A stretch of 64,000 bases of DNA, taken from assembly GCA_041736805.1 (NCBI GenBank), contig JBGSSW010000004.1, positions 51,843-115,842 of the forward strand, read 5' to 3'. A model generated the notes under the pieces. The model saw only the letters and a list, made by a program, of their open reading frames with translations. It was not told the DNA's origin and did no database searches. Both the position numbers and the translations under genes were made by a program. This DNA is from Minisyncoccia bacterium (GTDB taxonomy: Bacteria; Patescibacteriota; Minisyncoccia; Phycocordibacterales; UBA918). Positions 6,101 through 61,728 of this stretch are shown piece after piece. Position 1 is the stretch's first letter. Each line of letters opens with the position of its first letter.

Positions 6101-9100
6101 TATTCCTGGTACCACGACCATCGTTGATCCTCAGCTAACTCAGTCCGGTTTTCATTGGCGATTAGATAATGGCTCAGAAATAACAGCTTCATCTGCGACG
6201 GCGGGAGTTGAAAACACCAATTTAACAGCTTTGAAGATAGGAATTCCAAGGCGAGTTCGTCTCGATGTTTCGAATCAAGGTTCCACCACCTCTGTACCAG
6301 CCGCTTTTAGACTTGAGTACGGTGAAGCTGCTCCAACTTGTAACGATACAAGTTCCTGGAGTGTTGTCGGTGAACCAAGTTCAGACTGGATTATGTATGA
6401 CTCAAGTAATTTAACTGATGGTACAGACACAACTAATATTCTAGTTGCAAATGGAGGTGTAACTGACCTTGGAACGAACTTTATAGGTAGTAATGGGGGA
6501 GTCAGAGACGTAAATAATACTTTCGGAACAACCACATTAGATATAGATGATTTCGTTGAGCTAGAGTACTCAATCATGGCTTCTTCTTCGGTGGTAGAAG
6601 GTTCAACTTACTGTTTTAGAGTTTCCAGAAATGGCATTCCACTTGGTTCATATTTGGAATTTCCAAGAGTGACAATCGCGGCTGATGTGTTGGTGCAGGG
6701 TTATGGTACCCAAATAGCCACTACATCAGTTTTAGCAACTAATGTATATGCTGGAGGAGGAATCAGAATTGTAGAAAATAGTAGCAATCGTGATGTAACA
6801 AGCGTAAAGCTTTCTGAGTTTGGAACCATAGACAGTGCTACCAGTATTAAGAATCTAAAATTATTCTACGACCTTGATACCTCTGGACCGTATGACTGTG
6901 CTAGTGAATCGTACAGTGGGGGAGAAGCTCAGTACGGCTCTACAGTTAGTGATGGATTTAATGGAGTCGGCGAAACGGCTTCATTTACAGATGCAGTAAA
7001 TATATCGACAACAGAAACCCTTTGCTTATATGTGGTCTATGACGTCGGTGATTTGGCTCAAAATGGTCAGACTTTAGATATTGGGGTTAATTCTGGGTCG
7101 TCAGATGTGACTGTTACGGGAGTTGCAAGTGTCGGACCTTCAGGACTGATTAGTATATCAGGAGAAACAATTATCGAAGGGGCTATTTTATCACAAATAA
7201 ATTATCACTGGAGAAGTGACAATGGTACCCAATTAACTGCCTCGTCTGCTACCGCTGGAGTTGAAAATACGCCAATTGTGGATTTTTCTCAAAATTCTCC
7301 AATTCGTTTAAGATTTGCAGTTACAAACACCGGTCTTGCTTCTTCAGTACCAGCTCGTTTTCAACTTGAGTACTCTCCTAAAATCACTACTTGTGATATG
7401 GCCACTGTTTGGACAGATGTGAACAGTACGCTTGACGGTTGGGATATGTATAACTCGTCATATTTAACTAATGGGGAAACAACAACAAATATTGCTGTTG
7501 CTAGTGGAGGAGTTTCAAATGGTTCGGGGACATTTATCTCTAGCAATGGTGGAGTAAGGGACACTGAGTCGCTTTCCGCTACTACTTCTATTCCAGTAGG
7601 AGATTATCTTGATGTCGAATACAGTATTACTTCAACTGATCTTACTTCTTACAGTACTACTTACTGCTTTAGAGTATCTTCAAATGTTTCATCTGCCTTT
7701 GGTTCATATGTTCAATATGCTGAAATTACCACTGCCGCTAAAAGAGATTTTAAGATTCAAAGAGGCTCAGTTCAAGTGAGTGGGACTTCGGCCACAGTGG
7801 TCGCTGGAGTCGACTATACAGCTCCGGCTAGTACTTCGCTAGCCTTTGTTAGAATCACTAATTCCCATCATACAGGAGCGGGAAATTCAACAGCCTCAAC
7901 AAATCAAAACAGTGACGATGTGACAGCCTATATCTCAAATCCAGGCAACATTGCTACTAACTTTACTATTTCTCGTCCTAGTTCGGCCACGAGTAATACT
8001 CGCGTTGATTGGGAAATAATTGAATTTATCGGCAATTCTGGCACAGATAATGAAATGATTGTGCGTGGAGTTGGAACGGTTTCTTATACAACTACGTCCC
8101 TAGTGGCAACGGGTACAGTTTTATCAAACATTAGTAATAATAGTAAAGTGGTAGTTTTTGTCACTGGGGCTAGTGATAGAAATACTTCACGTAATTACTA
8201 TGCCGGATTAGTAACTTCAGCCTGGGATACTAATACAAATTCACCTGTCTTTACTCGAGGAGCCAATGGTTCAAGTATCGCTGATATAAGCTACGCAGTG
8301 GTAGAGTTTGTTGGACCAAATTGGAATGTCCAAAGAGTAGAACATACTTACATAGCATCTGGTGTAACTGAGACAGAATCAATTACAGCTGTAAATAGTC
8401 TAGCAAAAACTTTCCTTCATACACAAAAAAGAATGGGAGCCACGACTAACGTTGTTCACTATGGACATCAAGTATGGTTATCAAGTATAGGGGCTGTTTC
8501 ATTTCAGTTGGAGACTGGAGCCAGTGTAGCAGTCGGACAGACTTCAGTAGCCTGGATAATTGAAAATATCCAAGGTGGAATTGGGGCCATGAATATTCAA
8601 AGGTCTAATGGTAATACGACTGGTGGGACAGGACCGTTATCACTTTCTGTAGTGCTCTCTACCCCACTTGTAGCAGTAAATAATACTTCCATCATGGCAA
8701 ATACCAGCGGGGCTGGAGTAAATACTAGTTATCCTAGACCGATGGCGGGTTTTACTATCACTAGTACTTCCACCTATCAAATTTGGCGTAGTAATACTGG
8801 AACAACTTTAACTTACAGAGTCGAGCTAGTGGAATGGCCAGTAGCAGACTTAGCTATTCGGCAGAATTACTATCGCTTCTACGTCGATAATAATTTGCTA
8901 ACCCCTACGGACCCTTGGCCAGCCGGAGTTATTGATCTTGGTGAAAATACCTCCATTACTACTGCTGATGAACCACTTGGTAGTGGAGAACATTTAAGGA
9001 TAAGAATGAGTTTAAGAACTTCAAATGCAGCCATGCCCGCTGGTTTACAAAACTTCAAACTCCAGTATGCCCTAAGAAGTACTACTTGTTCGGCTGTTTC

Positions 9101-32386: not shown

Positions 32387-32462
32387 GGGCCAGTAGCTCA
32401 CTTGGTAGAGCGCCTCATTTGCACTGAGGAGGCAGGGAGTTCGAATCTTCTCTGGTCCACCA
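32387..32462 (+). tRNA. tRNA-Ala (anticodon UGC), 76 nt with encoded CCA
   Basis: Cloverleaf folded by hand. Acceptor GGGCCAG/CTGGTCC with the G3:U70 alanine identity pair. D-arm GCTC-ACTTGGTA-GAGC. Anticodon loop TTTGCAC. T-loop TTCGAAT. 3' CCA present. Confidence 0.85.
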
Positions 32463-32557: not shown

Positions 32558-32630
32558 GGGCCCTTAGCTCATCCGGTAGAGCGCTTCCATGGCATGGAAG
32601 AGGTGAGCGGTTCAAGTCCGCTAGGGTCCA
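32558..32630 (+). tRNA. tRNA-Ala (anticodon GGC), 73 nt, CCA not encoded
   Basis: Acceptor GGGCCCT/AGGGTCC with G3:U70. Anticodon stem CTTCC/GGAAG, loop ATGGCAT (anticodon GGC). T-arm AGCGG-TTCAAGT-CCGCT. Discriminator A. Confidence 0.8.
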
Positions 32631-32632
32631 CA
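32616..32632 (+). repeat. 17-nt direct repeat copy 1 (gtccgctagggtccaca), the 3' end of tRNA-Ala(GGC); att-core-like
   Basis: Identical 17-mer recurs at 32800-32816. Confidence 0.6.
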
Positions 32633-51245: not shown

Positions 51246-51328
51246 AAGCTGCTGGGTGTTAAGTTTTTTACATTATCCTATTTCGTGGCATACTAAATCA
51301 ATAATTACTTTTTTAAGTGGGGTTTATT

Positions 51329-53710
51329 ATGCACAAAAAATTTGACTCTGAAGCGATTGAAAAAAGGTGGCAGACCAAGTGGCAAACTGATGGTCTTTAT
51401 GCTGTCGGACAGCGTAATAAAAGTAAAGAAAAGGAATATGTCTTGGTCGAGTGGCCATATCCCTCTGGCAATCTCCACATCGGGCATTGGTATGCTTTTG
51501 CTGTCCCAGACATCTATGTGCGTTTCAAACGTATGCTCGGTAAACAAGTGCTATATCCAATGGGTTTTGATGCGTTTGGCTTACCAGCCGAAAACGCCGC
51601 TATCAAACGCAACCTCAATCCCAAAGACTGGACCAACGACAACATCTCCTACATGAAGAATCAGTTGGCCAGTATGGGAAACAGCTTCTCTTGGGACAAG
51701 ACCACCAACTCCACTGACCCTGAATACTACAAATGGACCCAATCCATGTTTACCAAGTTTTTTGATAATGATATTGCTTATCGTGGTAAGGGAATAGTTA
51801 ATTGGTGTCCTGGCTGTAATACGGTGATTGCCAATGAACAAGTGTTAGCCGATGGTACCTGTGAACGCTCGGGAGACGTAATTGAAAAAAAAGAAATGCC
51901 GCAGTGGATGCTCCGTATCACTAAGTACGCGGACCGACTAATTGATGACTTAGAAACAGTCAACTGGCCTGAACATATCAAAGAAGCTCAACGCCAATGG
52001 ATAGGAAGAAGCAAAGGGGCAAAAATTAATTTCAAACTATCTACCGGTGAAGAAGTGACTGTCTTCACCACCCGACCTGATACGCTTTTTGGAGCGACTT
52101 ATTTGGTATTGGCCCCAGAACACCCTCTGGTGGCTCAAAACAAAGACCAGATAGGCAATTACTCAGAAGTGAGTACACATGTATCTCTATCTAGAGCCAA
52201 AGATGAGCAAGACCGTCTAGACGCGACCAAAGAAAAAACGGGTGTAAAGCTAGAGGGCATCACGGCTACCAATCCGGCCAGTGGAGAAGAAATCCCTGTC
52301 TACATCGCCGATTATGTCCTAGCTGGTTACGGCACCGGAGCCATCATGGCCGTACCAGCTCACGATGAAAGGGATTATGAATTTGCCAAGAAATTTGGAA
52401 TTGAAGTCAAGCAGGTTATAGCCTCAACTGTTGAATTGCCATTTTCAGAAATAGGAAAATTAATTAATTCTGGAGAATTTAATAACCTAGACAGCGAAGA
52501 AGCTAAGGAGAAGATAGTTGAAAAAGTGGGTGGAAAGATGACTTCTACTTATCGTTTGCGGGACTGGTCTATTGGTCGCCAAAGATACTGGGGAGTGCCA
52601 ATTCCAATTGTCTATGATCCAGACGGAAAAGCTCACGTGGTACCAAAGGAACATTTACCGTGGACCTTGCCTGAAGATGTAGACTTCAAGCCGACAGGAG
52701 AGGCCCCGCTGGCGAAGAGCGAAGCTCTTCGCCAGCGGACCGAAGAAATCTTTGGTAAAGGCTGGACACCGGAAGTCGAGACGATGGATACTTTTGTCGA
52801 TTCGTCGTGGTATTTCCTTAGATATTTGGACAATGAAAACGGTAGTGAGCTGGCGAGCAAAGCTCGCCAGCAAGACTGGATGCCGATTGATATTTACTTT
52901 GGGGGAGCTGAGCATACTACCATGCACCTTCTATACTCTCGCTTTTGGCAGAAGGCTCTCCTAGACCTAGACTTAGTGACTGAAAATGAACCTTATCGCA
53001 GGCGTATCAATCGTGGATTAATTCTTGGTCCTGACGGCAACAAAATGAGTAAGAGTAAGGGCAACGTGATTGACCCCGATGAACAAGTGAAGTTAGTGGG
53101 TGCAGATACCGTCAAGATGTACTTAGCCTTTATGGGTCCTTATGAAGGAGCCAACTATCCGTTTGACCTCGGAGGCATCGCTGGCGTGCGTCGTTTCCTA
53201 GAGAGAGTTAATGGTCTGGCTGAACATATAATTGAGGATGAGAGTCCAGAAATGCTAGGTCAGCTACATAAAACTATCGACAAAGTACGCTCTGATATCG
53301 AAGCTTTTAAGTTCAACACTGCCATCTCCGCCATGATGATATTCGTCAATGCAGCTGAAAAGAGTGGTCTAAGCAGTGATTCTTACCACACTTTCCTTAA
53401 GCTTTTAGCTCCTTTTGCTCCTTACCTGACTGAAGAAATCTGGTCAACTTTGCAGACTGACACATCAATCCACCTAGCCAGTTACCCAGAGGCCAAAGCT
53501 GAATTACTGATAGATGACATGGTTACTTTGGGAGTACAAGTCAATGGAAAGCTTCGTGGGTCTATTACTGTCAGTCCTGAGGCGGAGGAGTCAGAAGTAC
53601 TCGCAGCCGCCTTAGTTGAAGAAAGTGTAACCAGATACGCCACTAAGGAGAATGTAACTAAGGTAATTTACGTAAAAGGTAGGATTTTGAATCTGATTGT
53701 TCAAAGCTAA
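51329..53710 (+). CDS. leuS: leucine--tRNA ligase
   Basis: ORF track start 51317 is GTG; ATG at 51329 (MHKKFDSEAIEKRWQTKWQ). HIGH motif (PYPSGNLHIGHWYAF), KMSKS (NKMSKSKGNVIDP), editing domain. Confidence 0.95.
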   Translation: MHKKFDSEAIEKRWQTKWQTDGLYAVGQRNKSKEKEYVLVEWPYPSGNLHIGHWYAFAVPDIYVRFKRMLGKQVLYPMGFDAFGLPAENAAIKRNLNPKDWTNDNISYMKNQLASMGNSFSWDKTTNSTDPEYYKWTQSMFTKFFDNDIAYRGKGIVNWCPGCNTVIANEQVLADGTCERSGDVIEKKEMPQWMLRITKYADRLIDDLETVNWPEHIKEAQRQWIGRSKGAKINFKLSTGEEVTVFTTRPDTLFGATYLVLAPEHPLVAQNKDQIGNYSEVSTHVSLSRAKDEQDRLDATKEKTGVKLEGITATNPASGEEIPVYIADYVLAGYGTGAIMAVPAHDERDYEFAKKFGIEVKQVIASTVELPFSEIGKLINSGEFNNLDSEEAKEKIVEKVGGKMTSTYRLRDWSIGRQRYWGVPIPIVYDPDGKAHVVPKEHLPWTLPEDVDFKPTGEAPLAKSEALRQRTEEIFGKGWTPEVETMDTFVDSSWYFLRYLDNENGSELASKARQQDWMPIDIYFGGAEHTTMHLLYSRFWQKALLDLDLVTENEPYRRRINRGLILGPDGNKMSKSKGNVIDPDEQVKLVGADTVKMYLAFMGPYEGANYPFDLGGIAGVRRFLERVNGLAEHIIEDESPEMLGQLHKTIDKVRSDIEAFKFNTAISAMMIFVNAAEKSGLSSDSYHTFLKLLAPFAPYLTEEIWSTLQTDTSIHLASYPEAKAELLIDDMVTLGVQVNGKLRGSITVSPEAEESEVLAAALVEESVTRYATKENVTKVIYVKGRILNLIVQS

Positions 53711-53804: not shown

Positions 53805-53845
53805 TAAGCCACGCATTGAGGTATCTATCGGGAAAAATTAGTTTT

Positions 53846-54871
53846 ATGATTACATTTAAACCAAAACAAATAACAAAATCACTTTTAAGTGTGCTGCCTG
53901 AGCGAGCGCGCGACGTACTAACAAAGCGTTACGGACTTGGCCCAACCGGTGAAACTTCGACTTTGGAGTCTATTGGTCAAGCCTATGGTATTACTCGTGA
54001 GCGAGTAAGACAAATTGAAAACTACGGGATTCAGTCAATCCAAAAATCTGAAGAATATAAGAAAAACTTTGACTTATTTCTTGAAATTCAAAGCTTGATT
54101 GATCAATTAGGTGGTGGAGTAATCGCTGAACACGTCTTGCTCGATGAGCTAACCACCGACCCAGTGGTGAAAAATCACCTCTACTTTTTACTAGTGGTTG
54201 GAGACCCGTTTTATCGTGGCAAAGAAAACCCAACTTACACTCATCGTTGGTTTACTGAGCGTAAGATTGCAGATGTGGTTGAAAAGGCCTTGAAACAAGT
54301 TTATCTATCTTTAAATAGCGACGAACTGGTTAGTGAGCAAGAGATTTTAAATCGCTTCCGAACCCAATTGCTTGAACTAGCCGACAAGTATGATGAAGGA
54401 ATCCTCAAGCGTTGGTTATTGATTTCAAAGCAAATTGGGCGCAATCCACTCGGTGACTGGGGTCCATCTGATAGCCCAAATATTAAAGTAAAAGGCATTC
54501 GTGATTATGCTTACCTGGCCGTTAAAAGACACGGTTCACCAATGCACTTTAGGGAAGTGGCCGAGTCAATTGATTCACTTTTTAAACACAAAGCCCATAT
54601 AGCGACCACACACAACGAATTAATTAAAGATGCTCGCTTTGTACTAGTTGGTCGTGGACTATATGCCCTTACAGAATGGGGCTATACGGCTGGAGTGGTA
54701 AAGGATGTCTTGCGGGAAATCCTAGAAAAAGAAGGTCCACTGTCAAAAGAGGAACTGATTGATAAAGTTAGAAAAGAACGTTACGTAAAAGACAACACTA
54801 TTATCGTCAACTTACAAGATGCCAACATCTTTAGACGATTAAGTAATGGGACTTACGCAATCGCAGAATAA
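53846..54871 (+). CDS. sigma-70 region-4 (HTH) domain-containing protein with unknown C-terminal domain
   Basis: N-terminus LPERARDVLTKRYGLGPTGETSTLESIGQAYGITRERVRQIENYGIQSIQKS is a sigma-70 region 4.2 HTH. No region 2 is present. Confidence 0.55.
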   Translation: MITFKPKQITKSLLSVLPERARDVLTKRYGLGPTGETSTLESIGQAYGITRERVRQIENYGIQSIQKSEEYKKNFDLFLEIQSLIDQLGGGVIAEHVLLDELTTDPVVKNHLYFLLVVGDPFYRGKENPTYTHRWFTERKIADVVEKALKQVYLSLNSDELVSEQEILNRFRTQLLELADKYDEGILKRWLLISKQIGRNPLGDWGPSDSPNIKVKGIRDYAYLAVKRHGSPMHFREVAESIDSLFKHKAHIATTHNELIKDARFVLVGRGLYALTEWGYTAGVVKDVLREILEKEGPLSKEELIDKVRKERYVKDNTIIVNLQDANIFRRLSNGTYAIAE

Positions 54872-54881
54872 GCGATCAATT

Positions 54882-54923
54882 AAAAAATCTCCCACAGACC
54901 AATGGTCCGGTGGGAGATTTTTT
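54882..54923 (+). terminator. rho-independent terminator after the sigma-r4 gene (AAAAAATCTCCCAC...GTGGGAGATTTTTT)
   Basis: 14-bp stem with structured loop and T-tract. It covers the ORF-track start 54902 of the next gene. Confidence 0.55.
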
Positions 54924-54940
54924 ATAGTACAATAATCAAA

Positions 54941-56275
54941 ATGGGAGAAATACTTAAAGTTATATTTACAGGCATCGCTGGACCTTTGTTTCTTGTTTTT
55001 GGAATACTGTTTTTTATATTTTTTCTAACTAGACTAAATTTAAACCCCGGACCGATTTTTTCGGTCATGATTGCCCTCACCCCTATTTGGCTACCAATAG
55101 CAATTTTTTTCATTACTTTTGAGCGTTGGATGTATTACATCCAAAACAAATTTGTTTTTAATACGGGACGCAGTACCTTGCGAATTAATTTACCGCAAGA
55201 AATTTTTAAATCTCCTGAAGCTATGGAAAGTGTTATTGCTCAAATTCACAACGTCAATACACCAGATAATCTAATGCAAACATATATAGACGGTAAACAT
55301 CCTTTGCCTTTTAGTTTTGAGCTAGTTTCCACGGGTGGAGAAGTGCGCTTTTATATTAATGTACCCACCAAAAAAACCAAAAATGCTTTAGAAGCTCAAC
55401 TTTATGCTCAGTATCCTGGCATTGAAGTAATTGAAGAGGACATGGACTATACCGATGAAATTAAATGGGATCCTGAACGTTATGAGTACATGGCTTTCCA
55501 TATGGGTAAAAAAGAAGCTGAGTCTTTTCCCATCAAGACCTATATTGATTTTGGTCTTGATAAACTACCTAAAGAGGAAGAGAAATTCGAACCAATGGCA
55601 CCAATGATTGAGGTGATGGGTAAAATAAAACCCCATGAAAGACTCTGGGTGCAAATTTTGGCAACTCCACACGTTAAAAAAACTTTTAAAAATGGCTACT
55701 TAATTGAGCAACAAACTTGGGACCATAAAACTAAAGCAACTATCAATGAAATGTTAAAAAGGGACCCAAGACCAGCAAATGAAATTGACGAGTATGAAAG
55801 AGCACCGATGCTAACCATGGGTGAAAGAGACACTATTGCAGCCATGGAAAGAAATGCCGGTAAATATGCTTTTGAAGTTGGGATTAGATGGATGTACATC
55901 ACAGAAAAGGGAAAATTTAATGGTGATGTAATTTCTCCTATGATTCGTGCCTTTGCTCAATACGACATAATTGGACGTAATAGCATTGGTGTACGCTGGC
56001 GCACAGATTTTGATTATAATTTTATTTCTGACCGCTCGGGAAAAAGGAAGCTACGAATGAAAAGACTAGAGTTAGCCAGATACAAGGATAGATTTTATTA
56101 TTACATGGACCGAAAGAATAGAGCCGACGCCCCGAAAGTATTTTCGGCTGAGGAACTGGCTACCATGTTCCATATCCCAGGTAGCTCTGTTGTTACTCCA
56201 ACCATGCCACGTATTACTTCAGCCAGAAAAGAAGCTCCAAGCAACTTGCCTACTGGTTTAAAGACAACTATCTAG
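54941..56275 (+). CDS. hypothetical membrane protein (two N-terminal TM helices, large soluble domain)
   Basis: ORF track start 54902 lies inside the upstream terminator hairpin, so the next in-frame ATG at 54941 (MGEILKV...) is preferred. No recognised domain. Confidence 0.45.
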   Translation: MGEILKVIFTGIAGPLFLVFGILFFIFFLTRLNLNPGPIFSVMIALTPIWLPIAIFFITFERWMYYIQNKFVFNTGRSTLRINLPQEIFKSPEAMESVIAQIHNVNTPDNLMQTYIDGKHPLPFSFELVSTGGEVRFYINVPTKKTKNALEAQLYAQYPGIEVIEEDMDYTDEIKWDPERYEYMAFHMGKKEAESFPIKTYIDFGLDKLPKEEEKFEPMAPMIEVMGKIKPHERLWVQILATPHVKKTFKNGYLIEQQTWDHKTKATINEMLKRDPRPANEIDEYERAPMLTMGERDTIAAMERNAGKYAFEVGIRWMYITEKGKFNGDVISPMIRAFAQYDIIGRNSIGVRWRTDFDYNFISDRSGKRKLRMKRLELARYKDRFYYYMDRKNRADAPKVFSAEELATMFHIPGSSVVTPTMPRITSARKEAPSNLPTGLKTTI

Positions 56276-56286
56276 ACTATTACGAC

Positions 56287-57318
56287 ATGTCTGACGAAAC
56301 AGAAAACATTATATTTGGGCAGTACAACGAATCTACTTTGGAAGCACCTCTTAAAAAAAATAAGTGGCTGTTTGTAATTTGCTTTCTTTCGCTGTTGACA
56401 CTGTTTTTTTCTTTATCACTGATTTTTATTAAAAATTACGCCACAAAGCCGCCAAATGAATTTCCAATTAATTCTACTTTTGTTGTTGAAAAAGGAGCTA
56501 GTACTTGGAGTGTAATTCAAGCGGCTAAGCAACAAAGATTAATCAGATATGAACTAGCCTTATATTTTGAATTAAAACTTAATCACCCAGAGGATTTAAT
56601 CAAGGCCGGTACCTATACTTTTTCTAAGCCCCTAGACTTAGCAGAGCTGGCTACTGAGCTGACTTTGGGAAATCACTTAAGCGATTTAGTTAAAATTACC
56701 AATATTGAAGGGGAAACTTCTGTTCAAGTGGCGAATAAAGCCGCTAGTGTCTTAACCAACTTTAACGCGCAAATTTTTATAGAAATGGCCAAACCACTCG
56801 AAGGAAGACTTTTTCCTGATACCTATTTAGTTCCCAAATACTTTACTGAAGCAAAATTAGTGTATTTACTTACTTCTACTTTTGAGGAAAAAATTTCAGC
56901 CTACAAGGATAGAATTTTAGCTAGTAAGCTCAGTTTGGATGATATTATTATCCTTGCTTCAATTTTAGAAAGAGAAGCAAATACTATGGAAAGCAAAAAA
57001 ATAGTTTCGGGTATTTTGCAAAAAAGACTTTCTATAAATATGCCCTTACAAGTAGACGCTTCACTTGAGTACGTACTTGATAAACCGCTTTCTAAACTTA
57101 CCGCCGAAGACTTAGATATAGACTCACCATACAACACATACTTAAATTATGGTTTACCTCCTACGGCAATAGGTAATCCAGGATTAGACTCGATTATCGC
57201 AGTTTTGGAGCCTGAAGAAACAAACTATCTTTTTTATATAACTGGAGACGATGGTAATTTTTATTACGCTAAAGATTTTGACACCCATAAATTAAATGTG
57301 GCCAAATACTTGCGCTAA
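56287..57318 (+). CDS. mltG: second MltG/YceG-like endolytic transglycosylase paralog
   Basis: N-terminal TM. LQVDASLEYV..., DIDSPYNTYLNYGLPPTAIGNPGLDSIIAVLEP...YLFYI is the YceG signature. Confidence 0.75.
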   Translation: MSDETENIIFGQYNESTLEAPLKKNKWLFVICFLSLLTLFFSLSLIFIKNYATKPPNEFPINSTFVVEKGASTWSVIQAAKQQRLIRYELALYFELKLNHPEDLIKAGTYTFSKPLDLAELATELTLGNHLSDLVKITNIEGETSVQVANKAASVLTNFNAQIFIEMAKPLEGRLFPDTYLVPKYFTEAKLVYLLTSTFEEKISAYKDRILASKLSLDDIIILASILEREANTMESKKIVSGILQKRLSINMPLQVDASLEYVLDKPLSKLTAEDLDIDSPYNTYLNYGLPPTAIGNPGLDSIIAVLEPEETNYLFYITGDDGNFYYAKDFDTHKLNVAKYLR

Positions 57319-57345: not shown

Positions 57346-58410
57346 ATGAACAAGAAAAAAACTGTTTTTATTGGTCTTTCGGGTGGGGTAGATTCTTCTG
57401 TCGCTGCTCTTAGACTTTTGCAATCAGGCTATAATGTAGTCGGAGTTTTTATAAAAGTTTGGCATCCAGATTTTTTGGTTTGCAATTGGGAGCAAGAAAG
57501 ACTTGATGCTATGAGAGTGGCTGCTCATTTGGACATTAAATTTTTAACCTGCAACGCAGAAACAACCTACAAAGATGAAGTAGCTGATTATTTTATTAGC
57601 GAGTATCAGGCTGGACGAACCCCAAATCCTGACGTAATGTGCAACAAAAGTGTTAAATTTGGCGCTTTTTTGAAATTCGCCAAGGAAAATGGAGCTGACT
57701 ATATTGCTACCGGGCACTATGCTCAAAAAATTACTGCGAATGAGGAAGTTGAATTACATAGAGGAATTGATGGAAATAAAGATCAGTCATATTTTTTATG
57801 GTCACTAGATAGAGAACAACTTAAATCAGTTTTACTTCCGGTTGGAGATACTGCCAAAGAACAAATTAGAGCCGAAGCAACCAAAGCTAAAATACCGACA
57901 GCCACAAAGAAAGATAGTCAAGGGGTTTGCTTTCTTGGTCATATCGACATCAGAGATTTTTTATCTCATTACGTTGAACTAAAGAAGGGCAATGTACAAG
58001 ACGAGGTTGGAAATGTAATTGGAACACACAGCGGTTCACTAATTTACACAATTGGGCAAAGACATGGATTTGATGTCACCGTTATGGCCGAAAAAAGAGC
58101 TGCCTATTATGTCTGTGCAAAGAATCTTGAAAATAATACAATTACAGTTTCCACTACTCAACCAAAACTTAATGTCAGTAACGAAATGACTATTTCAAAT
58201 TTAGAGTTTAGAAAGCAAATTATCGTCGGAGAAAAATACGAAGCTCAGACTAGATATAGACAAAAACCATTTCTAGTTGAAATTTTGTCGATACAACAAA
58301 ATACTGGGGCTAAGTTAAAAATTCTAGAGACAACTGAAGCAGCTGCCAGTGGACAGTCCTGTGTACTATACTTAGGTAGCCAGTGCCTGGGAGGTGGTAT
58401 CATAGTTTAA
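57346..58410 (+). CDS. mnmA: tRNA-specific 2-thiouridylase
   Basis: PP-loop VFIGLSGGVDSSVAA. NPDVMCNKSVKFGAFLKFAKENGADYIATGHYA. Cys residues for persulfide relay (CFLGHIDI). Confidence 0.9.
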   Translation: MNKKKTVFIGLSGGVDSSVAALRLLQSGYNVVGVFIKVWHPDFLVCNWEQERLDAMRVAAHLDIKFLTCNAETTYKDEVADYFISEYQAGRTPNPDVMCNKSVKFGAFLKFAKENGADYIATGHYAQKITANEEVELHRGIDGNKDQSYFLWSLDREQLKSVLLPVGDTAKEQIRAEATKAKIPTATKKDSQGVCFLGHIDIRDFLSHYVELKKGNVQDEVGNVIGTHSGSLIYTIGQRHGFDVTVMAEKRAAYYVCAKNLENNTITVSTTQPKLNVSNEMTISNLEFRKQIIVGEKYEAQTRYRQKPFLVEILSIQQNTGAKLKILETTEAAASGQSCVLYLGSQCLGGGIIV

Positions 58411-58412
58411 TG

Positions 58413-59252
58413 CACCTGCAAATAAAAAAAGCAGACGGTACTTTCGAATTTTTTAAAATCGAAAAACTAAGACGCTCTCTGCGCAGAGCTGGAGCTTCTC
58501 CTGATGAGGTAAATAACGTGGTAGCCAAGATAACTCAGGAGTTATACGAAGGGATACAGACGCAAGAAATTTATCGACGGGCATTTACTTTACTACGTGA
58601 AAGTGAATTACCGACAGCAGCTAGGTACTCGCTACGTAGAGCTTTGTTTGGACTTGGTCCAACAGGATTTCCTTTTGAGAGATTTATAGCCCGGCTTTTT
58701 GAAACAGATGGCTACAAAACTAAAACTGGAATTGTGCTGCAAGGACGCTGCGCTCCCCATGAAATTGATATTGCGGCTTACACTGATACACACAGCTTTG
58801 TCGGAGAAGCAAAGTTTCACTCTCGACCAGGGGTAAAATCGGACTTACAAGTAGCTTTATATTCTTACGCTCGGCTAATTGACTTAAAAGGAACTACTAT
58901 TTGTTCCGATGACATTTGTAGTATTCAAGAATTTTGGTTAATTACTAACACAAAATTTACTTCAACCGCTGAAGAGTACGGTGAATGCGTTGGAATTAAG
59001 ATGCTTAGCTGGGATTACCCAAAACACAACAATCTTCATGACCGAATCCAAAGAGCTAAAATATACCCAATTACTGTTCTACAAAGTCTAAATTCTGCCC
59101 AGATAGCTACCCTGATAGCTAGAGATATCATTGTTTGTAACGATATTGTTGACAACCAAGGTGCGTTAAGACATTTACACCTCTCTTCACCTAAACTTCA
59201 GGCTGTCATGAATGAGGTAAATGAAATATGTGAAAAGAAAATAACCGCTTAA
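58413..59252 (+). CDS. ATP-cone domain fused to Mrr-like PD-(D/E)XK restriction-endonuclease-fold domain
   Basis: ORF track 58383 start overlaps mnmA. ATG 58413 (MHLQIKKADGTFEFFKIEKLRRSLRRAG...) begins a typical ATP-cone. Then GFPFERFIARLFETDGYKT...HEIDIAAY...FVGEAKFH carries the D...E-x-K nuclease motif. Confidence 0.6.
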   Translation, partial: HLQIKKADGTFEFFKIEKLRRSLRRAGASPDEVNNVVAKITQELYEGIQTQEIYRRAFTLLRESELPTAARYSLRRALFGLGPTGFPFERFIARLFETDGYKTKTGIVLQGRCAPHEIDIAAYTDTHSFVGEAKFHSRPGVKSDLQVALYSYARLIDLKGTTICSDDICSIQEFWLITNTKFTSTAEEYGECVGIKMLSWDYPKHNNLHDRIQRAKIYPITVLQSLNSAQIATLIARDIIVCNDIVDNQGALRHLHLSSPKLQAVMNEVNEICEKKITA

Positions 59253-59337: not shown

Positions 59338-59880
59338 ATGTTAGATGAAAAGCAAGAAGGGCAAAAGACTGTAGTCTCGTTTATAGTAGGTCTACTCATT
59401 GGAGGACTCCTAGTGTGGGCATTCTCAGGGCCAGAAGTTAAAGCACCAAGCGATAAGGATGACGATAAGGATGGAAAAGAAATGATGGATGAAGAAAAAG
59501 ATACAAATGAAGATGTAACAAAAACTGAAGAAAAAACAGAGGTGGTTCCAGTAGCAGTACTCCCAGTCGGAGACGGTAAAGTAACAACAGAAAATCAAGC
59601 CGCTGGCTCAGTTACAAAACTTACTTCAGCTGTTTTTCCAGTGAGCGAAGGCTGGATTGGTGTTAGAGATTACCAAAATGGTCAGCTAGGTGGGCTACTG
59701 GGCGTGGTTAGATTTAGTGAAGAACAAGGATTAGTGCCAAGTGAAGTAATCTTACAAAGAGCTACCGAAGCCGGAAAAGATTATGCTGTGGTAGTTTATA
59801 CCGAAAGTGGTGATAGACAGTTTAGTTTGGCAGACGACAAACAATTGGATTCTGTTTTTGCTACCTTTACTGCTGAATAG
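59338..59880 (+). CDS. hypothetical membrane-anchored acidic protein
   Basis: TM (VVSFIVGLLIGGLLVWAF), then an acidic low-complexity linker and a beta-rich C-terminal domain. Confidence 0.4.
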   Translation: MLDEKQEGQKTVVSFIVGLLIGGLLVWAFSGPEVKAPSDKDDDKDGKEMMDEEKDTNEDVTKTEEKTEVVPVAVLPVGDGKVTTENQAAGSVTKLTSAVFPVSEGWIGVRDYQNGQLGGLLGVVRFSEEQGLVPSEVILQRATEAGKDYAVVVYTESGDRQFSLADDKQLDSVFATFTAE

Positions 59881-59902
59881 TAGATACAATCTTTATGCTA
59901 CA

Positions 59903-59929
59903 AAAAAGCCCGCTGGGGCTTTTTTGTTA
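59903..59929 (+). terminator. rho-independent terminator (AAAAGCCC-gctg-GGGCTTTTTT)
   Basis: GC stem flanked by A-tract and T-tract, right after the stop of the 59338 gene. Confidence 0.55.
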
Positions 59930-59959
59930 CCCAAATTACTATAGTGTTATACTTATCTC

Positions 59960-60754
59960 ATGGCAGAATTTAAAAAATACTATAACCCCAATCGAAGTAG
60001 TGAGTGGAACTATGGCGGAGAAAAATGGCGCCTATCACGTTCAAAAATTGACTTTTTTATTGAATGTCCACGTTGTTTTTATCTTGATAACAAACTTGGC
60101 ACCAAGCGCCCAGGTTTTCCCTCTTTCAATTTAAACATTGCGGTTGACGAGTTGTACAAGAAAGAATTTGACATTCATCGTGCCGCCAAAACGCCACATC
60201 CAATTATGAAGAAGTATAAAATTGAAGCGGTCCCTTTTTTGCACAAAAATATGGATAAATGGCGCGATCCATTTGTTGGTATCGAATATAAGGAACCCAA
60301 AACTGGTTTAATGGTATCGGGAGGGGTTGATGATATTTGGGAAACAAAAAAGAAATCGTTAATTATAGTTGATTATAAATCAACATCTAAAGCGGGTTCC
60401 ATTACTGAGCTTTCAGATAGTCCCTGGGATCAACAATATACTAGACAACTTGGAGTCTATCGCTGGTTACTAGAGAAAAACAACTTTGCAGTCGAACCAA
60501 GAGGTTACTTGGTTTATGCCAATGCAAGTAAGGAAGAAGCTGCTTTTGCTGACAAGTTGGTCTTTGAAACCACGTTAGTGTCAGTAGAAACTGATACGAA
60601 TTGGATATTACCAACATTACGAGACATTAAAATTTGTCTTGAGGGCGACGATTTACCAGCTATAGGTGAAAACTGTGAATTTTGTCCCTATCGTGAAGCT
60701 AGCGGTAAAAAACTTCAGGCCATCCATTATGCAAAAATTAAAGTCAAAAAGTAA
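59960..60754 (+). CDS. Cas4/RecB-like PD-(D/E)XK nuclease with four Cys (Fe-S cluster-type), standalone
   Basis: N-terminal ECPRCFY. Motif II/III IIVDYKSTSK. QLGVYRWLL (QxxxY). C-terminal CEFCPY. No CRISPR array or other cas genes in the window. Confidence 0.65.
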   Translation: MAEFKKYYNPNRSSEWNYGGEKWRLSRSKIDFFIECPRCFYLDNKLGTKRPGFPSFNLNIAVDELYKKEFDIHRAAKTPHPIMKKYKIEAVPFLHKNMDKWRDPFVGIEYKEPKTGLMVSGGVDDIWETKKKSLIIVDYKSTSKAGSITELSDSPWDQQYTRQLGVYRWLLEKNNFAVEPRGYLVYANASKEEAAFADKLVFETTLVSVETDTNWILPTLRDIKICLEGDDLPAIGENCEFCPYREASGKKLQAIHYAKIKVKK

Positions 60755-61004
60755 GAGGAACTTCAGTCTAGAGGTAAAGAATGTGGTTAAGAACATCCCA
60801 CGTGGCCAGACTCTTTCCTACAAAGAAGTGGCCACACTAGCTGGCAATGCGAAAGCCGCCCGAGCTGTAGCCAGAGTGATGTCTACTAATTATGATGAGA
60901 GTATTCCTTGTCATCGGGTAATTAGGAGTGACGGCACCTTTGGTGGCTATAACCGTGGTGGAGAGCTGGTCAAACGTGATATATTAGAGTCTGAATCTAA
61001 ATAA
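60729..61004 (+). CDS. ogt: methylated-DNA--protein-cysteine methyltransferase, minimal single-domain form
   Basis: Active-site PCHRV present (IPCHRVIRSDGTFGGY). HTH (LSYKEVATLAGNAKAARAVA). Internal ATG 60729 chosen; the ORF-track 60666 start overlaps the upstream gene by ~90 nt. Confidence 0.7.
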   Translation: MQKLKSKSKRNFSLEVKNVVKNIPRGQTLSYKEVATLAGNAKAARAVARVMSTNYDESIPCHRVIRSDGTFGGYNRGGELVKRDILESESK

Positions 61005-61125
61005 ACGTTATGATCAATGACTCAGAACTAACAAGATTTAACCAAGAACTAAATAGTCTAAGAGATAGCGAAAGAGAGACTGAAGAAGAAAGAAGAAGAA
61101 CAGAGGCAAATAAAAAATAACTTAT

Positions 61126-61728
61126 ATGTACTCCTATCGAGTCGAACAAGCCATTAGAGCAGCGGCAGTGCTGCACAAAAACCAACTTCGAAAGGGTTCA
61201 ATGCCTTTTCCATACATCACCCACTTAGTAGCCACAGCTTTTACTTTGATGGACTACAGCGACGATGAAGACGTTATAATTGCTGGGCTACTTCACGATA
61301 CACTTGAAGACACGGACTATACCATTGATGAATTACAAGAAGATTTTGGGGGACGCGTACGAGAGATTGTTGAAGCAGTAACCGAACCGAAAAGTACGCC
61401 GGAAAACAGAATTGCTTGGAAAGATAGAAAAAAGGCTTATGTGGAATTACTCAAAAAAGGACCGAAGGAATCAGTCTTAGTGGCTGCAGCAGACAAGATA
61501 CATAACTTTAGAACTTTAGTTGAAGATTACTCTGATGGTCACGACAGATTCATGACTGACTTTGGTAAAAATTTTGATGAAAGACTTGAAGTTTACCAAC
61601 TAATTGCCAACGTTATAAACAATCGACTAGAAGGAAGTATTTTAGCTGAATTTAACCACGTTTTTGAGGAATATAAACAATTTTTATACAATGTCAAAGA
61701 AACAGAAGAAAAAAGATATACTATCTAA
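61126..61728 (+). CDS. HD-domain (p)ppGpp hydrolase-like protein (SpoT/RelA hydrolase domain only; small alarmone hydrolase type)
   Basis: YITHLVATAFTLMDYSDDEDVIIAGLLHDTLEDTDYTIDELQEDFGGRVREIVEAVTE matches the RelA/SpoT HD domain (HD...LHDxxED). No synthetase domain. Confidence 0.75.
   Translation: MYSYRVEQAIRAAAVLHKNQLRKGSMPFPYITHLVATAFTLMDYSDDEDVIIAGLLHDTLEDTDYTIDELQEDFGGRVREIVEAVTEPKSTPENRIAWKDRKKAYVELLKKGPKESVLVAAADKIHNFRTLVEDYSDGHDRFMTDFGKNFDERLEVYQLIANVINNRLEGSILAEFNHVFEEYKQFLYNVKETEEKRYTI

What the first reader, a model, noticed from the sequence alone, without database searches (positions are those of the whole stretch)
57346..59252. ATP-cone domain fused to an Mrr-type PD-(D/E)XK nuclease, translationally coupled to mnmA
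The ATP-cone (allosteric nucleotide sensor of NrdR and ribonucleotide reductases) precedes a restriction-endonuclease-fold domain with an intact D...E-A-K catalytic triad (HEIDIAAY...FVGEAKF). The ATG is 3 nt after the mnmA stop. A nucleotide-sensing nuclease is the logic of several recently described defence effectors. Here it is paired with a tRNA thiolation enzyme, hinting at tRNA or nucleotide-pool surveillance.
Basis: partly seen in the sequence, partly recalled or inferred. Interest (0 to 1): 0.55.

Follow-up and report, generated by a model that had tools for sequence, protein, structure and literature searches.

The report
ATP-cone-gated nuclease, conserved housekeeping gene
The gene after mnmA encodes an uncharacterised nuclease with an ATP/dATP-sensing domain; it is a conserved core gene of tiny symbiotic bacteria, and its gene neighbours in other lineages point to nucleic-acid and nucleotide recycling rather than phage defence.

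Summary

The defence and tRNA-surveillance reading is not supported. There is no PADLOC hit, no relative in phage or IMG/VR collections, and no defence neighbours. The gene diverges in step with MnmA (rho 0.81) inside a gene block conserved across Patescibacteria.

Outside Patescibacteria (Bacteroidota, Chlamydiota, DPANN archaea) mnmA is never adjacent. There the gene sits in operons with a beta-CASP nuclease, an AMP-phosphorylase-like enzyme and a PRPP-synthase-like enzyme, or with AMP nucleosidase, often among Usp and Hsp20 stress genes.

Best reading (about 0.45): a non-specific endonuclease gated by adenine nucleotides that starts controlled nucleic-acid turnover for nucleotide recycling. 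I found no published characterisation of this fusion. Interest is moderate to high.

The parts
57346..58410 (+). mnmA (tRNA 2-thiouridine(34) synthase), 354 aa; the upstream gene of the coupled pair
   Evidence: NCBIfam NF001138, 388 bits (cut-off 284), and TIGR00420. Pfam tRNA_Me_trans, tRNA_Me_trans_M and tRNA_Me_trans_C.
58408..58412 (+). TAATG junction: the mnmA stop TAA and the ATG of the next gene share one base
   Evidence: Read directly from the sequence. Among 43 Patescibacteria loci, 16 have an overlapping stop/start and 7 have a gap of 0-30 nt. No terminator-like site lies between the genes.
58410..59252 (+). ATP-cone / AF1548-type PD-(D/E)XK nuclease / HhH-like protein, 280 aa (the finding itself)
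   Evidence: ORF. An identical protein is called on public contigs. 3732 relatives at E<=1e-3. 430 clusters at 50% identity with E<=1e-30, nearly all about 280 aa and full length. AF2 model pLDDT 95.5, pTM 0.90.
58419..58640 (+). ATP-cone domain (residues 4-77)
58653..58679 (+). Hinge motif L-G-P-x-G-F-P-F-E (residues 82-90) joining the cone to the first catalytic helix; ends in invariant E90
   Evidence: G83, G86, F89 and E90 are invariant, and P84 and P88 are conserved in at least 90% of 55 diverse sequences. It is the most conserved stretch of the family and was picked automatically as the search pattern.
58671..59024 (+). PD-(D/E)XK nuclease core (residues about 88-205): helix with E90; beta2 with H117-E118-x-D120; beta3 with E133-x-K135; R155, D158 and N180
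59064..59228 (+). AF1548-like C-terminal helical domain (residues 219-273), helix-hairpin-helix-like; probably binds the nucleic-acid backbone
54902..57318 (+). Context: DUF8128 membrane protein (54902..56275) and YceG/MltG (56287..57318), the upstream part of the syntenic block conserved in Patescibacteria
   Evidence: Pfam labels on the identical public contig. YceG is present upstream in 44 of 44 and DUF8128 in 42 of 44 MnmA-linked loci with enough sequence.
59338..61728 (+). Context: the downstream part of the conserved block. 180-aa unknown protein (59338..59880), solo Cas4-like PDDEXK_1 nuclease (59960..60754), small MGMT-like protein (about 60729..61004), HD_4 hydrolase (61126..61728)
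   Evidence: Pfam and PADLOC. Found downstream in 23, 28 and 22 of 40 MnmA-linked loci for the 180-aa protein, PDDEXK_1 and HD_4 respectively.

Best explanation
The gene encodes a cytoplasmic, sequence-non-specific PD-(D/E)XK endonuclease of the AF1548 family. Its activity is set allosterically by an N-terminal ATP-cone.

Proposed mechanism:
1. The cone binds adenine nucleotides (ATP against dATP, possibly ADP or AMP).
2. As in ribonucleotide reductases and NrdR, the bound nucleotide changes the oligomeric state.
3. The invariant G-P-x-G-F-P-F-E hinge transmits this to catalytic E90, and so to the formation of a cleavage-competent dimer of FokI/Mrr-like nuclease cores.
4. The HhH-like C-terminal domain holds the nucleic-acid backbone without sequence preference.

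Proposed biological role: the first, gated cut in controlled turnover of nucleic acid into nucleotides. An exonuclease then produces NMPs, which enter AMP-cleaving and PRPP enzymes for base and ribose-phosphate salvage or for energy.

In Patescibacteria the gene is a vertically inherited core gene. The overlap with mnmA reflects a frozen operon-like block, not a functional partnership with tRNA thiolation.

Shown here: the domain architecture, the intact catalytic residues, the conservation, the phyletic spread and the gene contexts.

Inferred: nucleotide binding, the direction of regulation (which nucleotide switches the enzyme on), the substrate (DNA or RNA), and the recycling role.
For: Architecture and fold.

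Active site: E90, E118, D120, E133 and K135 are invariant in 55 relatives that share only 33-67% identity.

Cone: K7 and G10 are invariant; K19 and T51 are conserved in at least 90%. The coordinates of the profile match to E. coli NrdA place K7, G10 and K19 on NrdA K9, G12 and K21. The NrdA sequence and the ligand-contact roles of those residues are recalled from memory.

Core-gene behaviour: identity tracks MnmA (53.7% against 54.4%, rho 0.81). The protein is more conserved than YceG (41.7%) or DUF8128 (44.2%). GC content matches the surroundings.

Independent contexts pointing to nucleotide metabolism:
1. The operon target / beta-CASP nuclease / archaeal-type 'thymidine phosphorylase' / PRPP-synthase subfamily occurs in Pontibacter, Criblamydia (another phylum), Cyclobacterium, Owenweeksia and several metagenome loci. 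The phosphorylase scores TIGR02645 589 bits against 434.6, and AMP phosphorylase TIGR03327 480 against 535. The synthase scores PRK07199 404 against 322.
2. A beta-CASP gene is a putative operon partner 37 times among 115 loci without mnmA. It lies directly downstream in 26 of 36 Bacteroidota loci.
3. In another lineage an AMP nucleosidase gene (PRK07115, 412 bits against 264) overlaps the target's start by 10 nt. It sits beside a deo-like nucleoside locus.
4. pyrC and pyrD lie immediately downstream in another lineage.
5. In a Micrarchaeota genome, form-III-type RuBisCO and three HD hydrolases lie 2-6 kb upstream.

Other support:
- The MBL / PRPP-synthase / TP-family trio is induced by microoxia in Bradyrhizobium (PMC6515984).
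- The AMP phosphorylase, R15P and RuBisCO route is established for CPR and DPANN (PMC5113843).
- In Patescibacteria a different exonuclease-type gene (Cas4-like PDDEXK_1) and an HD hydrolase follow the target.
Against: - No biochemical data exist for any member. AF1548 itself is only a predicted nuclease.
- In the window's own lineage the neighbours (mnmA, mltG, Cas4-like nuclease, MGMT-like protein) say nothing direct about nucleotide salvage. The 64-kb window has no AMP phosphorylase, PRPP synthase, beta-CASP, AMP nucleosidase or RuBisCO.
- The HhH domain, the Cas4-like and MGMT-like neighbours, and UvrD-type helicases a few kb away in two loci fit DNA repair equally well.
- Many loci outside Patescibacteria have uninformative neighbours: 112 different Pfam families among 130 unlabelled partners.
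- The commonest partners are Usp stress proteins (47), which indicate a stress regulon rather than a pathway.
- The direction of regulation and the substrate are unknown.
Confidence: 0.45

Rival explanations
1. A DNA repair or recombination nuclease. It would be a structure-specific endonuclease (the nuclease-plus-HhH logic of Hjc, NucS, Mus81 and XPF) whose activity the ATP-cone couples to dNTP/ATP availability. It would act on damaged or branched DNA.
For: - In Patescibacteria the conserved downstream genes are a Cas4/RecB-like nuclease and an MGMT-like protein.
- UvrD-type helicases lie within about 5 kb in two unrelated loci.
- An S24 (LexA/UmuD-like) peptidase follows the gene in L096.
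- Beta-CASP enzymes include DNA-repair nucleases.
Against: - The tight operons with an AMP-phosphorylase-like enzyme and a PRPP-synthase-like enzyme, with AMP nucleosidase, and with pyrC/pyrD are not repair contexts.
- No recurrent association with recA, ruv, uvr, ligase or polymerase genes appeared in the neighbour census.
- The nearest nuclease folds are non-specific cleavage modules (AspBHI, FokI, MspJI) rather than junction resolvases.
Confidence: 0.2
2. An NrdR-like regulator. The ATP-cone would control DNA binding by the nuclease-fold and HhH module, which would repress the adjacent nucleotide or stress operons without cutting DNA.
For: - The gene is often the first gene of the operon it might regulate.
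- Neighbouring genes concern nucleotide metabolism, as in NrdR regulons.
Against: - All five catalytic residues are invariant across bacteria and archaea. A purely DNA-binding role would not require this.
- HhH domains bind the backbone without sequence specificity.
- There is no Zn-ribbon or HTH reader domain.
Confidence: 0.1
3. An anti-phage or abortive-infection effector, or a Type IV (Mrr-like) restriction enzyme. The nuclease would be triggered by changes in ATP/dATP caused by infection.
For: - NCBI names some members 'restriction endonuclease'.
- Published work groups 1Y88 with Mrr_cat.
Against: - No PADLOC model matches (best E 0.03). The neighbours form no defence system; the only hit is a solo Cas4-like gene that is itself syntenic and conserved.
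- Absent from INPHARED phages and from IMG/VR.
- Only 2 hits in 72,556 plasmids, both in metabolic operons.
- Single-copy, syntenic, and diverging at the rate of MnmA. This is the opposite of the patchy, fast-evolving pattern of defence genes.
- No Mrr_N reader domain.
Confidence: 0.07
4. A tRNA/RNA-directed nuclease that works with MnmA, for example by clearing tRNAs that lack the s2U34 modification.
For: - mnmA lies immediately upstream on the same strand in 42 of 43 Patescibacteria loci, with overlapping stop and start in 16.
- In Bacteroidota the partner is a beta-CASP protein with an RMMBL 'RNA specificity' domain.
Against: - mnmA adjacency is restricted to Patescibacteria, where the whole multi-gene block is conserved.
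- It is absent from all 36 Bacteroidota loci, from the other loci of the census, and from the Chlamydiota and archaeal loci.
- No RNA-binding domain is present; HhH domains typically bind DNA.
Confidence: 0.05

Closest known systems
AF1548 of Archaeoglobus fulgidus (PDB 1Y88; structural-genomics protein of unknown function)
   Different: AF1548 (199 aa) has no ATP-cone and lacks the conserved G-P-x-G-F-P-F-E hinge context. Its function has never been tested, so the homology gives a fold but not a role.
ATP-cone regulators: NrdR and the ATP-cones of class I and class III ribonucleotide reductases
   Different: The output module is a nuclease, not a reductase or a Zn-ribbon DNA binder. I found no paper describing an ATP-cone on a nuclease. 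Which nucleotides bind, and the sign of the effect, are unknown.
Mrr / Type IV restriction enzymes and the Mrr-like cleavage modules of MspJI, AspBHI, LlaBIII and FokI
   Different: Mrr_cat is below the Pfam gathering score (19.0 against 21). There is no modification-reader domain (Mrr_N, SRA). The gene shows no defence or mobile context and has core-gene conservation.
Ligand-gated PD-(D/E)XK effectors of CRISPR type III and CBASS systems (Can2, Card1, Cdn1, NucC, Cap4)
   Different: The sensor is an ATP-cone that reads housekeeping adenine nucleotides, not a CARF or SAVED domain reading cyclic oligonucleotides. No cyclase or CRISPR partner is present, there is no PADLOC hit, and the gene is not in defence islands.
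Archaeal/CPR AMP metabolic (pentose bisphosphate) pathway, and the microoxia-induced MBL / PRPP-synthase / TP-family cluster of Bradyrhizobium
   Same: In several phyla the gene heads an operon with just these enzymes: a beta-CASP MBL nuclease, an AMP-phosphorylase-like enzyme and a PRPP-synthase subfamily member. That trio is induced under low oxygen (PMC6515984). The AMP pathway is known in CPR and DPANN (PMC5113843).
   Different: No nuclease has been assigned to these pathways. The link rests on gene neighbourhood only, and it is not seen within the 64-kb window itself.

Membership tests
ATP-cone domain (PF03477) | Sequence match above the curated Pfam threshold | tested here: met
   36.0 bits against gathering score 25.8, E 1.1e-8, residues 4-77 covering profile positions 2-83 of 88.
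ATP-cone domain (PF03477) | ATP-cone fold (beta-hairpin lid over a four-helix bundle), superposable on known cones | tested here: met
ATP-cone domain (PF03477) | Conserved nucleotide-contacting residues (the K-x-x-G lid lysine, a second lysine about 12 residues later, a Thr in helix 3) | tested here: met
   K7 and G10 are invariant. K19 is conserved in 53 of 55 and T51 in 54 of 55 sequences. The coordinates of the profile match to NrdA place them on NrdA K9, G12 and K21. The ligand-contact role of those residues is recalled from published RNR structures, not tested here.
ATP-cone domain (PF03477) | Binds ATP or dATP and changes the oligomeric state | not testable with these tools
   Needs ITC or a filter-binding assay, plus SEC-MALS or mass photometry.
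AF1548-like nuclease family (PDB 1Y88; PF22357 C-terminal domain) | Homology over the nuclease core and the C-terminal domain | tested here: met
PD-(D/E)XK phosphodiesterase superfamily | An alpha-beta-beta-beta-alpha-beta core with D on beta2 and (D/E)-x-K on beta3 | tested here: met
   Model elements are H88-98, E103-111, E116-124 (D120), E129-135 (E133, K135), H146-159 and E174-179. These residues are invariant in 55, 31 and 53-sequence alignments.
Mrr / Type IV restriction endonuclease | Mrr_cat (PF04471) match above the curated threshold | tested here: not met
   19.0 bits against gathering score 21, E 1.6e-3, covering only profile positions 6-55 of 115. A few homologues do carry an unmarked PF04471 hit, and published work groups 1Y88 with Mrr_cat. 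It is therefore related, but not a member at the curated threshold.
Mrr / Type IV restriction endonuclease | N-terminal modified-DNA reader domain (Mrr_N winged helix) | tested here: not met
   The N-terminus is an ATP-cone. Pfam finds no other domain.
Mrr / Type IV restriction endonuclease | Restricts modified DNA | not testable with these tools
   Needs in vivo restriction assays.
Known or candidate anti-phage defence systems (PADLOC-DB 2.0) | Match to a defence protein model, and location in a defence system or island | tested here: not met
   The best PADLOC hit for the protein is E 0.03 (PDC-S02). Of 8 flanking proteins, only a solo Cas4-like nuclease and a partial HTH hit match. No relative was found in phage collections. 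The neighbour census shows stress and metabolic genes.
CARF/SAVED-nuclease effectors (Can2, Card1, NucC, Cap4) | A CARF or SAVED sensor, or a cA3-binding trimer, with an associated cyclase | tested here: not met
NrdR transcriptional repressor | N-terminal Zn-ribbon followed by an ATP-cone, about 150 aa | tested here: not met
   There is no Zn-ribbon, and the cone is N-terminal and followed by a nuclease. No NCBIfam family matches the protein.

The most novel reading that the evidence does not exclude
The family is the missing, allosterically gated entry nuclease of a widespread route from nucleic acid to NMP to ribose-phosphate and base. That route is AMP phosphorylase or AMP nucleosidase plus PRPP synthase, feeding the pentose-bisphosphate/RuBisCO pathway in CPR and DPANN. 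It would also be the first case in which the ATP-cone, so far a hallmark of ribonucleotide reduction (RNR, NrdR), controls a nuclease. It would give organisms without de novo nucleotide synthesis a dATP/ATP-feedback valve on nucleic-acid breakdown, mirroring the RNR activity site.
Probability: 0.3. Interest if true: 0.75.

Novelty: new variant of a known kind. Interest (0 to 1): 0.55.

Why it matters
ATP-cones are the classic on/off switch of deoxyribonucleotide synthesis. An ATP-cone driving a nuclease would extend that allosteric logic to nucleic-acid breakdown.

The family is conserved to the level of MnmA in Patescibacteria and also occurs in DPANN archaea. Neither group is thought to make its own nucleotides (established knowledge of these lineages, not tested here). 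Its partners elsewhere are AMP-cleaving and PRPP enzymes. It is therefore a concrete, testable candidate for how such cells control the conversion of DNA or RNA into nucleotides, and for how free-living Bacteroidota recycle nucleic acid under low-oxygen or energy stress.

It also assigns a plausible role to a 20-year-old structural-genomics orphan (1Y88). If the rival readings (repair nuclease or regulator) are right, the gene is still an uncharacterised core gene of a third of bacterial diversity, but the result is less surprising.

Tried and rejected
- Defence reading: rejected. PADLOC on the protein and on 8 neighbours, tblastn against phages and plasmids and an IMG/VR scan were all negative or metabolic.
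- mnmA as a functional partner: rejected as a general feature. Adjacency is confined to Patescibacteria, within a frozen block.
- Horizontal-transfer signal: none. GC content is the same as the surroundings.
- Promoter and terminator scan around the junction: counts are no higher than in shuffled sequence, and there is no terminator between mnmA and the gene.
- NCBIfam: no family for the protein.
- Literature searches for AF1548, 1Y88, 'ATP-cone' with nuclease or restriction endonuclease, and 'ATP cone domain-containing protein' found only fold-based predictions for AF1548 and nothing on the fusion.
- NrdR phyletic complementarity: could not be assessed. The paper I consulted gave no phylum-level data.
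- Profile search of the cone against the PDB: the top hits were designed helical-repeat proteins matching one amphipathic helix. They are spurious. The NrdR and RNR hits below them are the meaningful ones.
- The first attempt at a metagenome scan failed because the alignment was too divergent. It was repeated with alignment A4.
- The AFDB50 fold library was unavailable.
- Model coordinates are not exposed. The invariant Cys pair, the cone-nuclease interface and possible dimer geometry could therefore not be measured.
- A search of the window for AMP phosphorylase, PRPP synthase, beta-CASP, AMP nucleosidase, RuBisCO and an HD_3 hydrolase found nothing.
Full report
**What is in the sequence**

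Two same-strand ORFs fill the reported span.
- The first, 57346..58410, is MnmA. It scores 388 bits on the NCBIfam equivalog NF001138, whose cut-off is 284, and has all three Pfam MnmA domains.
- The second begins at the ATG at 58410 and ends at 59252 (280 aa). Public gene calls on an identical contig use the same start, and homologues align from this methionine.
- The mnmA stop and this ATG share one base (TAATG, 58408..58412).
- No terminator-like site separates the genes, and promoter-like matches are no more frequent than in shuffled sequence.

**Domains**

Pfam finds three matches:
- ATP-cone, residues 4-77, E 1.1e-8, above threshold.
- AF1548-like_C, residues 219-273, E 1.2e-8, above threshold.
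- Mrr_cat, residues 86-135, only a sub-threshold match: 19.0 bits against a gathering score of 21.

The nuclease half is clear from other evidence.
- It matches the structural-genomics protein AF1548 (PDB 1Y88) with E 2.4e-31.
- An AlphaFold model built on 55 diverse relatives is very confident (pLDDT 95.5, pTM 0.90).

The architecture is therefore sensor (ATP-cone), then PD-(D/E)XK core, then a non-specific nucleic-acid-binding domain.

**Is the nuclease active and the sensor functional?**

I aligned 55 representatives that share only 33-67% identity with the window protein. These columns are invariant: K7, G10, G83, G86, F89, E90, G112, C114, E118, D120, E133, K135, R155, D158, N180, C193, W201, P204 and P220. 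Two differently composed alignments give the same catalytic residues.
- E90, E118-x-D120 and E133-x-K135 sit on the canonical helix, beta2 and beta3 of the model. They align with the D/E/K residues predicted to be catalytic in AF1548.
- In the cone, K7 and G10 are invariant. K19 and T51 are conserved in at least 96% of sequences.
- The coordinates of the family profile's match to E. coli NrdA put K7, G10 and K19 on NrdA K9, G12 and K21. The NrdA sequence and the nucleotide-contact role of those residues are from my memory of published structures.
- The most conserved stretch of the whole family is the hinge L-G-P-x-G-F-P-F-E. It connects the last cone helix directly to the catalytic glutamate E90. 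That placement suggests direct allosteric transmission, but this is inference.

**How the family is distributed**

- The word-indexed search found 3732 relatives.
- The exhaustive search of 50%-identity representatives found 430 clusters at E<=1e-30. Almost all are about 280 aa and cover residues 3-275 of the query, so the three-domain architecture is the norm.
- A scan of GTDB species genomes hit its ceiling at 598 confirmed loci. The best 80 are Patescibacteria (Nomura-, Kaiser-, Adler-, Zambryski-, Paceibacteria and others) and Bacteroidota (many Flavobacteriaceae, Cytophagales, Marinilabiliales), plus one Chlorobiota.
- Other members lie in Chlamydiota (Criblamydia) and Pontibacter plasmids, in Chitinophaga and Bacteroidia, and in DPANN-type archaea labelled Micrarchaeota and Altiarchaeota.
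- No relative exists in 50,697 phage records or among the pattern matches in 2.9 million IMG/VR contigs.

**Context in the window's own lineage**

Across Patescibacteria the order DUF8128, YceG/MltG, MnmA, target, 180-aa protein, Cas4-like PDDEXK_1, MGMT-like protein, HD_4 is conserved. It holds down to 38-45% identity of the target.
- mnmA lies immediately upstream on the same strand in 42 of 43 loci. The stop and start overlap in 16 and are 0-30 nt apart in 7.
- YceG is upstream in 44 of 44 loci and DUF8128 in 42 of 44. PDDEXK_1 is downstream in 28 of 40 and HD_4 in 22 of 40.
- The target's identity to the window protein tracks that of MnmA from the same genome: means 53.7% and 54.4%, Spearman rho 0.81, 46 loci. 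It is more conserved than YceG or DUF8128.
- GC content matches the surroundings.

This is the signature of a vertically inherited core gene in a frozen operon-like block. It is not that of a defence gene, and not that of a specific mnmA partnership.

**Context elsewhere**

None of the 36 Bacteroidota loci has mnmA nearby.
- In 26 of those 36 loci, a 457-aa beta-CASP metallo-beta-lactamase with an RMMBL domain follows directly. Tandem Usp genes, Hsp20 and a Crp-type response regulator surround the pair.
- In Pontibacter and Criblamydia (different phyla), the annotated operon is ATP-cone protein, MBL-fold hydrolase, 'thymidine phosphorylase family protein', ribose-phosphate pyrophosphokinase. 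The junctions are tight: the MBL gene starts 12 nt after the ATP-cone gene in Pontibacter and overlaps it by 4 nt in Criblamydia. In Criblamydia the operon lies beside phosphoketolase, glucan phosphorylase and acetate kinase.
- The same four genes occur in Cyclobacterium, Owenweeksia, a Bacteroidia MAG and several metagenome contigs.
- NCBIfam identifies the phosphorylase as the archaeal type (TIGR02645, 589 bits against 434.6). It falls just short of the AMP phosphorylase equivalog (480 against 535). The kinase belongs to the PRK07199 subfamily.
- In another lineage the gene that overlaps the target's start by 10 nt is an AMP nucleosidase (PRK07115, 412 bits against 264). It faces a nucleoside-utilisation locus with a TonB receptor, cytidine deaminase, NupC, DeoC and DeoA.
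- In another lineage pyrC and pyrD follow the target.
- In a Micrarchaeota contig, RuBisCO large subunit and three HD hydrolases lie 2-6 kb upstream.

I made a census of putative operon partners (same strand, gaps of at most 120 nt, up to three genes each way) in 115 loci without mnmA. It gave:
- Usp: 47 genes.
- Beta-CASP: 37 genes.
- TP-family: 10 genes.
- PRPP-synthase-like: 6 genes.
- P-type ATPase: about 8 loci.
- Also 2-hydroxyacid dehydrogenase, MgtC, Hsp20, HAD hydrolases and phosphoketolase, with a long heterogeneous tail.
- No defence families among the 25 most frequent.

The MBL / PRPP-synthase / TP-family trio is induced at both protein and transcript level by microoxia in Bradyrhizobium (PMC6515984). 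The route from AMP phosphorylase through ribose-1,5-bisphosphate to RuBisCO is documented for CPR bacteria (PMC5113843).

**Interpretation**

The shown facts are:
- an intact nuclease with an intact ATP-cone;
- core-gene behaviour in Patescibacteria;
- repeated, independent operon links to a second nuclease and to enzymes that cleave AMP or make PRPP, inside low-oxygen or stress gene sets.

I therefore think the protein is most likely an endonuclease gated by adenine nucleotides that makes the first cuts in controlled nucleic-acid turnover. The downstream exonuclease would be beta-CASP in Bacteroidota, and possibly the Cas4-like enzyme in Patescibacteria. Its products would feed AMP-cleaving and PRPP enzymes.

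By analogy with RNR and NrdR, the cone would act through nucleotide-dependent oligomerisation, and FokI/Mrr-like cores need to dimerise to cut duplex DNA. Which nucleotide activates the enzyme, and whether DNA or RNA is the substrate, cannot be decided here.

I put about 0.45 on this reading. The rivals are:
- ATP/dATP-regulated repair or recombination nuclease, about 0.2. It is favoured by the HhH domain and the Cas4-like, MGMT-like and UvrD-type neighbours.
- NrdR-like regulator, about 0.1. The invariant catalytic residues argue against it.
- Defence effector or Type IV restriction enzyme, about 0.07.
- MnmA-linked tRNA nuclease, about 0.05.

**Comparison with known systems, and novelty**

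- The gene is a clear member of the AF1548 family and carries a bona fide ATP-cone.
- It is related to Mrr but fails two Mrr membership tests: the Pfam threshold and the reader domain.
- It may work like the CARF/SAVED-nuclease effectors, but it is not one of them.
- It is not NrdR.

The domain combination is already catalogued. Pfam lists the domains, and NCBI names members 'ATP cone domain-containing protein', 'restriction endonuclease' or 'ATPase'. However, I found no paper describing or testing it. I therefore class it as a new variant of known kinds: ATP-cone allostery and ligand-gated PD-(D/E)XK nucleases. The window's gene is an ordinary member of that uncharacterised family.

**Limits**

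- All functional statements rest on sequence, a predicted structure and gene neighbourhood.
- Taxon labels of MAGs are those of the depositors.
- Both collection scans were truncated at 600 pattern matches (596-598 confirmed), so frequencies are samples, not censuses.
- My ORF calling in fetched loci is mechanical.

Noticed in passing
window 51317..53710; L003:1-503, L005:1-1374, L007:1-1317: The leucyl-tRNA synthetase of closely related Patescibacteria carries different inserted domains: Ham1p_like/ITPase (1057 aa), Ser_hydrolase/Abhydrolase (961 aa) and a weak NUDIX (945 aa). The window's LeuRS is 797 aa with no insert. Nucleotide-sanitising domains inside an aminoacyl-tRNA synthetase look unusual.
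   Followed up: no
window 59960..60754, about 60729..61004, 61126..61728: A solo Cas4-like PDDEXK_1 nuclease (PADLOC Cas4 E 4e-12; it has CxxC near the N-terminus and CxxC near the C-terminus) is overlapped by a roughly 90-aa MGMT-like protein that retains PCHR. An HD_4 hydrolase follows. No other cas genes are nearby. The trio is conserved downstream of the target in many Patescibacteria.
   Followed up: partly
window 58749..58751 (C114) and 58986..58988 (C193); also C243: Two cysteines are invariant across the family, including AF1548. A third (C243, in the C-terminal domain) is present in 45 of 55 sequences, and many members also have a Cys near the C-terminus. This could be a disulfide or a metal site. 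It could not be checked because model coordinates are not exposed.
   Followed up: no
window 59338..59880: A 180-aa protein with an N-terminal hydrophobic segment and an acidic, low-complexity linker has no Pfam or PADLOC hit. It follows the target in at least 23 of 40 MnmA-linked loci.
   Followed up: partly
window 53816..54871: A conserved 351-aa protein combines Sigma70 region 4 with a HARE-HTH domain. It has a partial PADLOC MzaA hit covering the HTH only, and it sits between leuS and DUF8128 in all related loci examined.
   Followed up: no
window 3183..10508: A very large ORF (2441 aa) on the + strand. It was not examined.
   Followed up: no
window 32387..32462 and 32558..32631: Two tRNA-Ala genes (anticodons TGC and GGC) lie about 100 nt apart. 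They are the only tRNAs in the window.
   Followed up: no
L042, L051, L061, L076, L083 (upstream of position 6000): Flavobacteriaceae loci carry 4-6 tandem two-domain Usp genes directly upstream of the ATP-cone nuclease / beta-CASP pair, with Hsp20, a Crp-type response regulator, a PAS kinase and a P-type ATPase nearby. The composition recalls low-oxygen or dormancy regulons.
   Followed up: partly
L094:8001-9539 (P0186); P0133, P0179, P0218: There are variant architectures. One 512-aa member has an N-terminal extension of about 235 aa that is histone-H1-like (HC2), and it lies next to an integrase. Several members of 324-403 aa match the query in two stretches, which suggests an insertion after about residue 160, where the model's confidence dips.
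   Followed up: no
L176:576-4718: In a Micrarchaeota contig, three HD-domain hydrolases (HD_5, HD_3, HD) and a RuBisCO large-subunit gene form a same-strand cluster a few kb upstream of the family member. This looks like a nucleotide-catabolism cluster.
   Followed up: no
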